Assembly: GCF_003334385.1 (NCBI RefSeq)
Contig: NZ_QOWN01000001.1
Length of the DNA stretch: 64,000 nt
Direction: 5' to 3' (one strand)
Source of the DNA: Escherichia coli
GTDB taxonomy: Bacteria > Pseudomonadota > Gammaproteobacteria > Enterobacterales > Enterobacteriaceae
Part shown: positions 1 to 3,000 of the stretch, in pieces
Layout of the letters: every line of letters starts with the position of its first letter
How positions within the stretch are numbered: position 1 is the stretch's first letter
Position numbers: made by a program

Positions 1-3000
1 TACTTCAGCCAGGAACGATCAGAAAAAGAGACTATACAGGCTCTGAATCATCTGCGCAGGGTACTTCATGAAGTCAGCCCTTTTGCACAGGAGCCTGTGG
101 ACTGTGTGCTGTGGGTGAAAGCAGATGAGGTGGTGGCCAACGATTATAACCCCAATGTCATGGCGCCGGGTGAGAAGAAACTGCTGAAGCAGTCACTGGA
201 GAAAGATGGTTTCACCCAACCCGTGGTGGTGTCGGCGGAGAAGAACCCCTATCTGGTGGTGGATGGTTTTCATCGTCAGTTACTGGGCAGGGAAGCAGGT
301 ACAGGAAAACGCCTGAAAGGCTGGTTGCCAGTGGCCTGTATTAATCCGGAAAGAAAGGGACAGGCCACACGTATGGCGGCCACCATACGGCATAACCGGG
401 CCAGGGGTAAACACCAGATAACCTCAATGTCTGATATTGTCAGGGACCTGTCACGCCTGGGCTGGACGGATGAACGCATTGGTACAGAGCCTGGGGATGG
501 ACCAGGATGAAGTGCTGAGGCTGAAACAGATTAGCGGACTGACGGAGTTGTTTCAGGAAGAGGATTTCAGCCCGGCATGGACGGTTCGCTGAGACCGTCA
601 TATATGAGTATTATTTCAGTGAGTTGATGTTTTGAGCAGGAAAAATAGTACCCCGGAAGTCGTGGAAGACATGGTTGCACAGAAGCTGGAGGCGGCGGGT
701 TGCTGGCGCAGAGCTTCTGCCCGCTGGCTTTTTGTTATGGGAAATGTTGAATGTACAGAAGCACAACGGGAGTGGTTGTTGTTGCGCCGGAATTATTGTC
801 TGGCGCAGATATCGTCCCCGCCGCTACCTGAAAAGCTGGATATCAGCGAAGTGGCGAAAGCTGCAGATGCCACGCTGAGGCGAATGGGGATTGCCAGCCC
901 GTCCGGGGAGATATTCAGAAAAGGTACACCGGTCTGTTGATATTCAGGTAACAGGTATTAATGATGAAGAAAGATATGGCGGACAGTGTGTCAATGACAT
1001 GGCAACTTTTATGCGATGAACATGGTTTTACCCGGGAGCACTACAATCAGCTGAAGAAGTTCAGCCCGGAGACATTACGTGAAATTATTGCTGAAATAGC
1101 CAGCTGTCATCCATCAACCAGTGTATTGCTCAGGAATAAGTGGCTGACACCGCCGGAGGATATTCTGGAGCAGATTACCCGTGAATACGAACGAAGAATA
1201 CAAAACTGTCCATCGTTCAGGAGCGAGAAGGAAGCGGAATCCTGGTTAAATGAACTGTCTTTTGCTGTGATTGCTCCGCTATACCGTGTTGTCCCCGAAC
1301 AAACAGAACAGGTTGAGTCCTTTGTTCTGCAGCTTATTGCCGAGCAGGAGCGGGTTTGGGAGCTTATTTTAACCAATGATGGTTATTCATGGCATTGCGC
1401 ACTTTATGATATATTATTTCATCTGGTTTTACGAAATATGGAAGACCAGCCTGAACATCAGAGACAGCGAATAACAAAAATACTTAATGAGTCCGATACA
1501 AGACGGGTGGCAGAAGAGATTAAATTCCGGATTCAATATCTTCAGGATGAAGAACAAAAGAGAGTTTTAAGTGATCTGGTAAATGTCCTGATTTCAAAAA
1601 GATAAAACATGCCGGAGTAATTTTTCTATATGTTAATAAAACAGGTGCGTATTACCATGAAGAAGATCGGTGAGTAACCGTTATTGGATGATCTCCTTCC
1701 ATAAAAATACGCGCAATCTAACGGTTCGCTCTGTGCCAAAAAAAGATATTGCTCACAATATCAAGTTAATCATTCGGCCGTTGAACATTTCCATTGAAAA
1801 ATTTCTCAGTATAGAATATACCAATGTTGAGGGCATTCCTCTTACATCTCGAAGGATAACTATCATGGGTCTTAAACCAGGTCCAAAACCAATTGCTAAG
1901 TCGGTAGGAAAACCGGATCAACGCCGACGCGATAATAAAGATACTCCTGGCAATACTCCGGGACTAAAGCCAAGTAAGTCCACAGGTAAGTAAAAAAATA
2001 AGGGTATAAACAAGCATTTATACACTGACTATATATCCAGTCCACTGAAGGTGTTTCAGCAACCAGATGCTCGTTCTTTCTATATCATACGCCTTTGCCC
2101 CGTACCCTTTCGCAAGCAAAGACTCTGGTAAATACTCGTCATATTTATCCAGATCCTTATCAGGAACAACTGCAGCAAGCTCAAATTCTGAAGGTGCAAA
2201 ATGGCATCTGAATCGATCACGACCTGGCATGAGCGAGAGAAGAGGCCAGTGATACAAGGCGTCGTGTACTACGCGGATCATCGAGACGGGCATGTCCAAA
2301 CTGCTCGTTAGCCCATGAATAACAATCAGAAAGTACCATAACAGAGTCGAATAAAATGAAATATAAGAGAAGATCAACGGGTGAAGAAAAAGTTCAAAAA
2401 ATGGCTACCGGGGAGGAAGGAAAGTACCGGATGGAAAGAGCCCCCCCTAAAGCAGACTGACAGACATCACAAATCCCCGGGTGGGGACTTGTGTATAAGA
2501 GACAGGTCTTACAGGGGGAGCGTCCGTCTTTTTATCAACATCAGGCAATGACATAACATTATGAACAAGCGCACAAGTCTGATGGTTAAATTTTATAATG
2601 CTCCTTACTAAGACCGTATTTTTTCATTCTGAGATAGAGTTTTTTCCGTGGGATTTGTAAATATTCAGCAACCTCATTGATACGCCCCTGATGGATATTA
2701 AGCGCCTCTGTGATTATCTGTCGCTCAGCGTCCTCCACTCGTCTGTCAAGCGGTGTCGGGGTTCCGACGTGCATCAACGGATTTGCTGTTTCTGCCAGCG
2801 GTAATACTCCTACAGTAAATAGTTCTGCTGCATTGGCCAGCTCTCGCACATTATTTGGCCACATGCGGCGCATCATCTCTTTGAGCATCTCTTTTCCCAC
2901 TTCCGGAACAGGATGGTTAAGCCGTTGACATGCTTTACAAAGGTAATGGCGAAACAGTGGTTCAATATCGTCGGGGCGTTGAGTTAATGGCAGGCAAGCG

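What the first reader, a model, noticed from the sequence alone, without database searches (positions are those of the whole stretch)
1606..2585. Orphan AT-rich segment with an isolated IS50 outside-end-like 19-mer (2487..2505)
Between the 214-aa hypothetical gene and pgtA there is about 1 kb with only weak ORFs (1670..1993 plus strand, 2018..2377 minus strand). At 2487..2505 the sequence ACTTGTGTATAAGAGACAG is the reverse complement of CTGTCTCTTATACACAAGT, an 18/19 match to the IS50 (Tn5) outside end and 17/19 to the synthetic mosaic end. I could not find a partner repeat or a Tn5-like transposase, so it may be a vestige of an IS4-family element, a junction scar, or an assembly artefact.
Basis: seen in the sequence. 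Interest (0 to 1): 0.4.

Follow-up and report, generated by a model that had tools for sequence, protein, structure and literature searches.

The report
Dead ISEc13 (Tn5-like) insertion-sequence stub
The Tn5-like 19-mer is the real left end of a broken ISEc13-type insertion sequence that landed in a hairpin just downstream of pgtA in E. coli CFT073 and later lost everything past its first 276 bp; it is an ordinary, already annotated transposon scar, not an assembly artefact.

Summary
ACTTGTGTATAAGAGACAG sits at 2487..2505 and matches the IS50 outside end 18/19. The window is E. coli CFT073.

The 19-mer is not isolated. It is the terminal inverted repeat of a 276-bp stub (2230..2505, minus strand) that is 95% identical to the left end of ISEc13, an IS4-family element whose transposase is 39% identical to Tn5 Tnp. 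The stub is 99.3% identical to a full-length copy at exactly this site in strain A36. RefSeq already annotates them as a pseudogene.

Three states of the locus exist:
- Empty (09A19CPO009): CCCCC-TGTAAAAC-AGGGGG hairpin.
- Occupied (A36): 1561-bp IS with a 9-bp duplication, CTGTAAGAC.
- Truncated (CFT073 and about 124-140 other complete genomes).

The rest of the "orphan" segment is a conserved 107-aa hypothetical ORF, the last 50 codons of a Shango defence helicase (sngC), and a 35-bp spacer. The 119-aa ORF is a chimera across these pieces.

Adapter artefact, laboratory Tn5 scar and chance match are all excluded.

Side observation: ISEc13 copies insert in CCCCT-N8-AGGGG palindromes with 8-9-bp duplications. 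I could not find this described.

The parts
2487..2505 (-). Left terminal inverted repeat (IRL) of the ISEc13-type element, CTGTCTCTTATACACAAGT. This is the transposase-binding end.
   Evidence: It is 18/19 to the IS50 OE and 18/19 to the ISEc13 IRL. It is 19/19 to the IRL of the full-length copy in A36 and of three E. whittamii copies. Homology to the empty site stops exactly at 2506.
2230..2505 (-). The 276-bp stub of an ISEc13-type insertion sequence: IRL, leader and the first 36-37 codons of tnp. It corresponds to nt 1-275/277 of a 1550-1561-bp element.
   Evidence: 95.3% identical to ISEc13 nt 1-275. 99.3% identical to nt 1-277 of the A36 copy at the same site. No other ISEc13 DNA or protein fragment is in the window.
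2217..2339 (-). Truncated transposase ORF of 40 aa. Residues 1-36/37 are the transposase N-terminus (start of the Tnp_DNA_bind domain), followed by 3-4 read-through codons and a stop.
   Evidence: 92% aa identity to ISEc13 Tnp residues 1-37. 57% identity to Tn5 Tnp residues 12-39, E=8e-8. NCBIfam NF049926 IS4_FS_Nterm scores 23.3 bits, below the cut-off of 27. RefSeq annotates 2232..2339 as the pseudogene 'transposase DNA-binding-containing protein'.
2468..2493 (-). An 11-bp stem with a 4-nt loop, overlapping the inner part of the IRL (CACAAGTCCCC-ACCC-GGGGATTTGTG). It is a conserved feature of ISEc13 left ends.
   Evidence: Read from the sequence. It is predicted as a hairpin in the fold of the read-through RNA and partly picked up by the terminator scan. 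Any function is inferred only.
2506..2518 (-). The surviving left half of the target hairpin. On the minus strand it reads CCCC + CTGTAAGAC, i.e. the C-arm plus the left copy of the 9-bp target-site duplication.
   Evidence: The empty site in 09A19CPO009 reads GCTCCCCCTGTAAAACAGGGGGCTATAACG. The occupied site in A36 reads ...CCCCCTGTAAGAC|IS|CTGTAAGACAGGGGG....
2220..2231 (.). The truncation junction. The strict overlap of the two parental homologies is 2 bp (TG, 2230-2231). It lies inside an imperfect microhomology patch: IS has AGCATGC-AGGTC and the other parent has AGCATGCCAAGTC.
   Evidence: Three bases (GCA) present in both ISEc13 and the A36 copy are missing in the window.
2195..2229 (.). 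A 35-bp spacer of unknown origin that follows the sngC stub. In three other lineages the same spacer continues into different DNA (CTTCCGATCATTG...).
   Evidence: Shared with L006, L008 and L009 up to window 2231, after which they diverge. It is not part of the intact sngC allele in L007.
2045..2194 (-). The 3' stub (last 50 codons) of the DEAD/DEAH helicase gene sngC of a Shango defence system.
   Evidence: tblastn of the L007 helicase: residues 683-732 align at 88% identity. The intact L007 trio matches PADLOC SngC (3.5e-278), SngB (8.7e-187) and SngA (6.7e-100).
2018..2377 (-). It is a chimeric, non-genic ORF that runs from the IS leader (out of frame with tnp), through the spacer, into the sngC stub and past sngC's original stop.
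   Evidence: ORF; origin of each piece. No NCBIfam match.
1670..1993 (+). A conserved 107-aa hypothetical ORF (RefSeq WP_015953064.1). It belongs to the ibrAB-perC module, not to the IS.
   Evidence: Annotated. Present in 519 genomes at >=80% coverage of 1606..2229. No Pfam match and no NCBIfam match. Synonymous/non-synonymous codon changes are 4/4 and 7/9 against two orthologues, which is inconclusive for coding.
2586..3842 (-). pgtA (context). The IS inserted 66-80 bp downstream of its stop codon.

Best explanation
The 19-mer is the left terminal inverted repeat of a dead ISEc13-type insertion sequence (IS4 family, Tn5/IS50-like).

History of the locus:
1. A 1.55-kb element transposed into the loop of a GC-rich hairpin (CCCCC-TGTAAGAC-AGGGGG) just downstream of pgtA and made a 9-bp target duplication, CTGTAAGAC. 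This step is shown by an empty allele and an occupied allele in other strains. By homology with Tn5 the mechanism would be DDE cut-and-paste transposition; that part is inferred.
2. In the CFT073 lineage, an illegitimate recombination at a short imperfect microhomology inside codons ~36-40 of the transposase gene removed the rest of the element (catalytic domain, right end, right copy of the duplication) and the neighbouring ABC-transporter cluster. It fused the 276-bp stub to a spacer next to the 3' stub of a Shango helicase gene in an unrelated island module (ibrAB-perC). The junction itself is shown; the mechanism is inferred.

With one end and no transposase, the stub cannot move. It is a neutral scar inherited clonally. 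The ~1 kb 'orphan' segment is a patchwork of five identifiable pieces, not a unit.
For: - The window is CFT073 at 100% identity, and RefSeq annotates 2232..2339 as a transposase N-terminal pseudogene.
- Window 2230..2505 is 95.3% identical to ISEc13 nt 1-275 and 99.3% identical to the full-length copy in A36, at the same site and in the same orientation.
- The 40-aa ORF is 92% identical to ISEc13 Tnp residues 1-37.
- The ISEc13 Tnp has Pfam Tnp_DNA_bind, DDE_Tnp_1 and Dimer_Tnp_Tn5. It is 39% identical to Tn5 Tnp over the full length. The DDE and YREK residues align.
- Homology to the empty site ends exactly at 2506. The A36 copy is flanked by CTGTAAGAC on both sides.
- The reconstructed target fits the consensus of 9 other independent ISEc13 insertions. 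None of 20,000 random draws reached the observed values.
- The junction is mapped by comparison with L006, L008, L009 and ISEc13.
- The DNA expected beyond either junction is absent from the window, and the ibrAB module is absent from 48 kb downstream in A36.
- The scar occurs in about 124-140 complete genomes at >=99% identity.
Against: Nothing contradicts this.

Open points:
- The exact recombination mechanism is inferred from one junction. The window lacks 3 nt (GCA) relative to a simple microhomology crossover.
- The order and size of the deletion or replacement are unknown, because A36 has a different island downstream.
- I did not determine whether CFT073 has an intact ISEc13 elsewhere.
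- ISfinder itself could not be queried. The name ISEc13 comes from RefSeq annotation of the homologous full-length copies.
Confidence: 0.95

Rival explanations
1. Assembly or adapter artefact: a Nextera/Tn5 mosaic-end adapter sequence was incorporated at a chimeric junction.
For: The 19-mer is 17/19 to the mosaic end.
Against: - It differs from the ME at positions 17-18 and is followed by 257 more bp of ISEc13 homology.
- The identical segment is in about 124-140 independently assembled complete genomes.
- A full-length element with a target duplication occupies the same site in A36, and an empty site exists.
- From my own knowledge, the CFT073 genome was Sanger-sequenced in 2002, before tagmentation existed.
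Confidence: 0.005
2. A scar from laboratory Tn5 or mini-Tn5 mutagenesis, or a remnant of natural IS50 itself.
For: 18/19 identity to the IS50 outside end.
Against: - Beyond the 19-mer there is no nucleotide similarity to IS50R; the only blastn hit is the 19-mer itself.
- The encoded N-terminus is 92% identical to ISEc13 but only 57% to Tn5 Tnp.
- The transposase start is 166 bp from the end, as in ISEc13 (165 bp), not 92 bp as in IS50.
- It is present in wild isolates from humans, poultry, monkey and other hosts.
Confidence: 0.005
3. Chance resemblance: a natural 19-mer with no IS ancestry that is conserved syntenically.
For: None beyond the short length of the motif.
Against: 0.04 matches are expected per window at <=3 mismatches, against an exact match here. 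There is 276 bp of contiguous IS homology. Homology to the empty allele breaks exactly at the first base of the 19-mer.
Confidence: 0
4. The stub has been co-opted. It might replace the disrupted hairpin as a terminator or RNA-stabilising structure for pgtA transcripts. It might encode a 40-aa N-terminal DNA-binding peptide that interferes with ISEc13 transposition. Or its solo end might be used in trans by an ISEc13 transposase from elsewhere.
For: - Read-through RNA from pgtA into the stub folds strongly (-46.1 kcal/mol, z = -4.4). The fold contains the 11-bp IRL hairpin and pairs the flanking C-run with an IS-internal G-run.
- The stub is 100% conserved in >120 genomes.
- N-terminal fragments of this transposase are common enough that NCBI has a model for them (NF049926), and stand-alone 67-aa versions are annotated in O157:H7.
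Against: - The conservation is explained by clonal descent; all copies are >=99% identical, flanks included.
- No sigma-70-like promoter was found in 1950..2650.
- The peptide covers only about half of the 58-residue DNA-binding domain.
- One end alone cannot be transposed by a Tn5-type synaptic complex (established knowledge of Tn5).
- No experimental data are available.
Confidence: 0.04

Closest known systems
ISEc13 (IS4 family; named in RefSeq annotation as 'IS4-like element ISEc13 family transposase'; about 30 copies in EPEC E2348/69)
   Same: The window stub matches nt 1-275 of the 1550-bp element at 95.3% identity: the same IRL (18/19), the same sub-terminal hairpin, the same 165-166-bp leader, and the same first 37 codons at 92% aa identity. 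The parent copy in A36 is 97.3% identical to ISEc13 over its full length.
   Different: Only the first 18% of the element survives: there is no catalytic domain and no right end. The parent is a variant with G at IRL position 18, as in E. whittamii, an 11-bp net insertion, and an internal stop codon in A36.
IS50 / Tn5
   Same: - The same family architecture: Tnp_DNA_bind, DDE and Tn5 dimerisation domains, with DDE and YREK residues aligned.
- 39% aa identity.
- Nearly the same 19-bp ends. The ISEc13 right end is identical to the IS50 IE (19/19) and the left end is 17-18/19 to the OE. The transposase stop lies inside the IE-like end.
   Different: - No nucleotide similarity outside the 19-bp ends.
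- The leader is 165 bp against 92 bp.
- Target duplications are mostly 8 bp (occasionally 9), against 9 bp for Tn5 from my own knowledge.
- Insertion shows strong target-arm specificity (CCCCT-N8-AGGGG), whereas Tn5 is known for near-random insertion with a weak consensus (Goryshin et al. 1998, cited in PMC2266710).
IS4-family elements with palindromic or structured targets: IS231A (GGG-N5-CCC) and IS186 (from my own knowledge), and ISRm22 in REP elements (PMC1525189, PMC2266710)
   Same: They share a symmetric target with conserved left and right arms flanking the duplicated core. [quoted passage not shown]
   Different: Those elements belong to other subgroups (IS231, IS4, IS4Sa). ISEc13's arms have the polarity C-run...G-run, and its transposase is Tn5-like. 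I found no description of this preference for ISEc13 or for the IS50 subgroup in the searchable literature. ISfinder could not be checked.

Membership tests
ISEc13-type element (IS4 family, IS50-like): parent element of the stub | Terminal inverted repeats of ~19 bp with 5'-CT extremities, similar to IS50 OE/IE | tested here: met
   The window IRL is CTGTCTCTTATACACAAGT, 18/19 to the OE. The A36 copy at the same site has this IRL plus an IRR that is 19/19 to the IS50 IE. The 5'-NT extremity criterion comes from PMC2266710.
ISEc13-type element (IS4 family, IS50-like): parent element of the stub | A single-ORF DDE transposase with D(60-110)D(100-150)E spacing and a Y(2)R(3)E(6)K motif | tested here: met
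   ISEc13 Tnp has D93, D193 and E323 (spacings 99 and 129) and Y316-R319-E323-K330, aligned to Tn5 D97/D188/E326 and Y319/R322/E326/K333. Pfam DDE_Tnp_1 matches. This was tested on full-length relatives (L002, L037), not on the window.
ISEc13-type element (IS4 family, IS50-like): parent element of the stub | Tn5-type N-terminal DNA-binding domain and C-terminal dimerisation domain | tested here: met
   PF14706 at residues 8-65 (2.8e-19) and PF02281 at residues 377-452 (9.7e-5) in ISEc13 Tnp. The window ORF covers residues 1-37 only.
ISEc13-type element (IS4 family, IS50-like): parent element of the stub | Target-site duplication of about one helical turn (8-12 bp) flanking the element | tested here: met
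   9 bp (CTGTAAGAC) at this very site in A36. Among the 15 full-length copies checked, 10 have an 8-bp duplication (representing 8 distinct sites), one has 9 bp and one has 7 bp; two have none (rearranged) and one lacks its right end.
Autonomous (functional) insertion sequence in the window | Two inverted ends and an intact transposase gene | tested here: not met
   No IE-like or OE-like partner in 64 kb at <=3 mismatches. Only codons 1-37 of tnp are present, and no other fragment was found by tblastn or blastn. It is a remnant, not a live element.
IS50 / Tn5 itself | Nucleotide identity to IS50 beyond the 19-bp end | tested here: not met
   blastn of the stub against an IS50R locus aligns only the 19-mer. 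The N-terminal peptide is 57% identical to Tn5 against 92% to ISEc13.
Nextera / mosaic-end adapter contamination | An exact ME sequence (CTGTCTCTTATACACATCT) at a junction found in one assembly only | tested here: not met
   17/19 to the ME. The segment is present in about 124-140 complete genomes. Natural empty and occupied alleles exist.
Shango defence system (source of the helicase stub at 2045..2194) | The three genes sngA (TerB-N), sngB (ATPase) and sngC (helicase) together | tested here: not met
   The window retains only the last 50 codons of sngC. The full trio is present at the homologous position in AR_0149.

The most novel reading that the evidence does not exclude
The remnant itself is not novel. 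The most novel reading the evidence allows concerns its family.

ISEc13-type elements are natural Tn5 relatives with almost the same 19-bp ends: the right end is identical to the IS50 inside end. Unlike Tn5, they choose their targets very specifically. They insert into CCCCT-N8(9)-AGGGG palindromes, which are often terminator-like hairpins between genes, and make 8-9-bp duplications.

If this is real and undescribed, it offers a natural model for how a Tn5-type transpososome reads target DNA, and a possible starting point for target-biased tagmentation enzymes. It would also explain why ISEc13 copies pile up in intergenic hairpins without destroying genes.
Probability: 0.4. Interest if true: 0.45.

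Novelty: already known. Interest (0 to 1): 0.15.

Why it matters
For the finding itself, very little. It is a routine IS remnant that RefSeq already flags as a transposase pseudogene.

It has some use as a clean, datable marker. Empty, occupied and truncated alleles of one site all exist, and the stub marks the seam between the pgt module and the ibrAB-perC module of a CFT073-type genomic island. It also shows that a Shango defence system was lost there.

As a practical caution, natural Tn5-like ends that are 17-18/19 to the Nextera mosaic end exist in about half of complete E. coli genomes. Adapter-trimming or contamination screens that tolerate mismatches could clip or flag genuine sequence.

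The side observation on ISEc13 target choice would interest transposon specialists if it proves to be new.

Tried and rejected
- Partner end. I searched the window for OE-like and IE-like 19-mers with up to 3 mismatches, and for any other ISEc13 DNA or protein fragment. Nothing was found.
- Inversion instead of deletion. The DNA that follows the empty site (L012), and the DNA that follows the 35-bp spacer in L006, L008 and L009, is absent from the whole window. The ibrAB module is absent from 48 kb downstream of the occupied site in A36. A simple local inversion, or a small deletion relative to A36, is therefore not supported.
The 107-aa ORF has no Pfam match and no NCBIfam match. The 119-aa and 214-aa ORFs have no NCBIfam match. 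A codon-position test on the 107-aa ORF was inconclusive.
- Promoter and terminator scan of 1950..2650. It found no sigma-70-like promoter, and the only terminator-like hit was the IRL hairpin.
- Species-representative genome scan for the left end. It returned only 3 hits, all in E. whittamii at contig ends. These were useful for left arms only.
- Literature. Eight papers mention ISEc13, each only in passing. The IS4-family review does not name it in the held text or supplements. The E2348/69 genome paper is not held. Three literature calls failed because the service was busy.
- Not done: I did not look for the second CFT073 'place' reported, so I do not know whether CFT073 has another ISEc13-related fragment.
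Full report
**Observation.** The window at 2487..2505 reads ACTTGTGTATAAGAGACAG. Its reverse complement, CTGTCTCTTATACACAAGT, occurs once in the 64 kb. With up to 3 mismatches allowed, only 0.04 matches are expected by chance. To avoid relying on memory, I read the IS50 ends from a real Tn5 copy on plasmid pMAK2 (L033). The outside end (OE) is CTGACTCTTATACACAAGT and the inside end (IE) is CTGTCTCTTGATCAGATCT. The window 19-mer is 18/19 to the OE and 17/19 to the mosaic end. The mosaic-end string occurs in Tn5 papers such as PMC4248319. 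The segment is mildly AT-rich, with GC 0.427 against 0.480 for the window.

**Where the window comes from.** Window 1606..2585 is 100% identical to E. coli CFT073 (NC_004431.1, about 4.96 Mb) and to more than 100 other complete genomes. The RefSeq annotation of this stretch runs, in order: ibrA-like PAPS reductase, frameshifted ibrB-like gene, perC-family regulator, a 214-aa hypothetical, a 107-aa hypothetical, a pseudogene called 'transposase DNA-binding-containing protein' (window 2232..2339, minus strand, missing its C-terminus), and then pgtA, pgtB, pgtC and pgtP.

**The 19-mer is not isolated.** The 40-aa ORF at 2217..2339 (-) aligns to Tn5 transposase residues 12-39 at 57% identity, E=8e-8. 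It hits NCBIfam NF049926, 'IS4/Tn5 family transposase DNA-binding protein', at 23.3 bits, below the cut-off of 27 because it is truncated.
- A megablast of 2200..2520 finds matches in 2095 of 5426 E. coli genomes, with up to 31 places per genome. Many are annotated 'IS4-like element ISEc13 family transposase'. Many hits start exactly at the first base of the 19-mer, and all stop at window ~2230.
- Against an intact 1550-bp ISEc13 (L002 2503..4052), window 2505..2230 aligns to nt 1-275 at 95.3% identity. Nothing else in the window matches the element at the DNA or protein level.
- The stub therefore contains the left inverted repeat, an 11-bp sub-terminal hairpin, the 165-bp leader, and codons 1-36/37 of the transposase.

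**What ISEc13 is.**
- Its 457-aa transposase is 39% identical to Tn5 Tnp over the full length.
- It carries Pfam Tnp_DNA_bind, DDE_Tnp_1 and Dimer_Tnp_Tn5.
- It has D93/D193/E323 and Y316/R319/E323/K330 aligned to the Tn5 catalytic and YREK residues. This fits the IS4-family hallmarks in De Palmenaer et al. 2008 (PMC2266710).
- Its right end is 19/19 identical to the IS50 IE, and its left end is 17/19 to the OE.
- Apart from the ends, the stub shares no nucleotide similarity with IS50.
- It is common and evidently active: about 30 copies in EPEC E2348/69, matches in 2992 of 5426 genomes, and copies on plasmids of Escherichia, Salmonella, Klebsiella and Shigella.

**Three states of the same site.**
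- *Empty.* In strain 09A19CPO009, pgtA and its 3' flank match the window at 98.3% up to window 2506. The sequence then continues ...GCTCCCCCTGTAAAAC|AGGGGGCTATAACG... into an ABC-transporter cluster. This is an unoccupied site consisting of a GC-rich hairpin.
- *Occupied.* In strain A36 a full-length 1561-bp element sits at exactly this position and in this orientation. Its IRL is identical to the window 19-mer and its IRR is identical to the IS50 IE. It is flanked by a 9-bp direct repeat, CTGTAAGAC, and followed by the same ABC-transporter cluster. Its first 277 bp are 99.3% identical to the window stub, and its transposase gene has an internal stop.
- *Truncated.* The window is this state. 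The insertion event, its target and its duplication are therefore shown directly.

**The truncation junction.**
- Left of 2230 the window matches other lineages (L006, L008, L009) up to 2231. Those lineages then continue with unrelated DNA.
- The strict overlap of the two homologies is 2 bp.
- It lies within an imperfect microhomology: the IS has AGCATGC-AGGTC and the other parent has AGCATGCCAAGTC. The window also lacks 3 nt relative to a simple crossover.
- I infer illegitimate, microhomology-assisted recombination.
- The DNA expected beyond either parental junction is not in the window. A36 has no ibrAB module within 48 kb downstream. So the stub marks a seam between two unrelated island modules rather than a small local deletion.

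**The rest of the 'orphan' kilobase.**
- Window 2045..2194 (-) encodes the last 50 residues of a DEAD/DEAH helicase, at 88% identity to the intact gene in AR_0149. That gene and its two neighbours match PADLOC SngC, SngB and SngA, i.e. a Shango defence system. Shango is described in bioRxiv 10.1101/2022.05.11.491447 and 10.1101/2022.11.11.516204.
- Window 2195..2229 is a 35-bp spacer shared with three other lineages.
- Window 1670..1993 is a conserved 107-aa hypothetical ORF belonging to the ibrAB-perC module. It has no Pfam or NCBIfam match, and its substitution pattern is inconclusive.
- The 119-aa minus-strand ORF is a chimera across the IS leader, the spacer and the sngC stub.

**Rivals.**
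- Adapter artefact is excluded. The 19-mer has two mismatches to the ME, it is followed by 257 further bp of IS homology, the segment is in about 124-140 independent complete genomes, and natural empty and occupied alleles exist.
- A laboratory Tn5 scar or IS50 itself is excluded by the lack of IS50 homology beyond the end and by the 92% versus 57% peptide identities.
- Chance is excluded.
- A co-opted function is possible but unsupported. Examples would be a replacement RNA structure for pgtA transcripts (the read-through RNA folds at z = -4.4) or an inhibitory N-terminal peptide. The conservation is explained by clonal descent, and no promoter-like site was found.

**Side observation.** Every ISEc13 copy I examined sits in a similar target.
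- Ten independent reconstructed sites, including the window's, give the consensus CCCCT-[8-bp duplication]-AGGGG. C occupies 8-10 of 10 sites at positions -5 to -2, and G occupies 8-9 of 10 at +2 to +5.
- None of 20,000 random draws from the window reached the observed arm composition or arm complementarity.
- Rearranged or partial copies, and three E. whittamii copies, show the same arms.
- One hot spot is occupied in both orientations (L020 versus L025).
- Duplications are 8 bp at most sites, 9 bp in two cases and 7 bp in one.
- Several targets are terminator-like hairpins between genes, for example agp/yccJ, ybaY/MGMT-family gene, and symE/DUF1127 gene.
- Conserved target arms are known for other IS4-family subgroups and REP targeting is known for ISRm22. 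I found no description for ISEc13 or for Tn5-like elements in the searchable literature. ISfinder could not be consulted.

**Verdict.** The claims of isolation and of no transposase are wrong. The feature is an ordinary, already annotated IS remnant with a fully reconstructible history. Interest is low. The only mildly novel element is the target preference of its parent family.

Noticed in passing
L013-L026, L034-L037 and the window 2506..2518 flank: ISEc13-type elements insert into CCCCT-N8(9)-AGGGG palindromes, often intergenic terminator-like hairpins, with 8-9-bp duplications. Ten independent sites support this, and none of 20,000 random draws reached the observed values. One hot spot is used in both orientations (L020 versus L025). 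I found no description of this in the searchable literature.
   Followed up: partly
L002 2503..2521 and 4034..4052; L033 109..127 and 1624..1642: The ISEc13 right end is 19/19 identical to the IS50 inside end, including its GATC sites and the transposase stop codon inside the end. The left end is 17-18/19 to the outside end. Yet the two transposases are only 39% identical, and the elements share no other nucleotide similarity. This suggests strong constraint on the ends, and possibly cross-recognition between the two systems.
   Followed up: partly
window 2045..2194 (-); L007 7436..13260: The helicase stub is the 3' end of sngC. The homologous position in strain AR_0149 holds an intact Shango defence system (SngA/B/C). 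Other strains carry different cargo at the same spot next to ibrAB-perC: a type I restriction-modification system in L009, and a cytosine methyltransferase plus a restriction-endonuclease remnant in L008. This looks like a variable defence-island slot.
   Followed up: partly
window 1..592 (+): The ibrB-like (ParB-like) gene downstream of the ibrA-like PAPS reductase is frameshifted in CFT073 (ORFs 97..510 and 437..592). RefSeq marks it as a pseudogene, and it is intact in AR_0149 and E100341.
   Followed up: no
window 2440..2545 (-): In RNA read through from pgtA, the flanking C-run of the split target hairpin is predicted to pair with a G-run inside the IS (IS nt ~57-66, TTTAGGGGGGG). This forms a long structure around the IRL hairpin (-46.1 kcal/mol, z = -4.4). 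It may be a built-in way for the element to rebuild a hairpin after inserting into C-run/G-run targets, or it may be coincidence.
   Followed up: no
window 1865..1993 (+): The C-terminal 42 codons of the 107-aa ORF have their own AAGGA Shine-Dalgarno sequence and ATG (MGLKPGPKPIAKS...). They encode a Lys/Pro-rich peptide that is almost invariant between diverged alleles, while the N-terminal part varies. The real gene, if there is one, may be this short peptide.
   Followed up: no
NZ_CP040456.1 65858..67613 (hits H1, H61): Strain UPEC132 has an IS1B insertion inside the otherwise identical 980-bp segment, so this seam continues to collect insertion sequences.
   Followed up: no
L034, L035 and L036 (Escherichia whittamii Sa2BVA5): Three contig-end copies carry an IRL identical (19/19) to the window's variant, with G at position 18. 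This suggests that this ISEc13 variant is multi-copy, and perhaps active, in E. whittamii.
   Followed up: no
L003 3001..3466 (ST131) and L004 3001..4453 (O157:H7): Other lineages carry their own decayed ISEc13-type copies at different sites: near leuX in ST131 and next to espL2 in O157:H7. RefSeq annotates stand-alone N-terminal 'IS4/Tn5 family transposase DNA-binding protein' ORFs there. Natural near-matches to the Nextera mosaic end are thus present in about 40-55% of the complete E. coli genomes searched (2095 and 2992 of 5426).
   Followed up: partly
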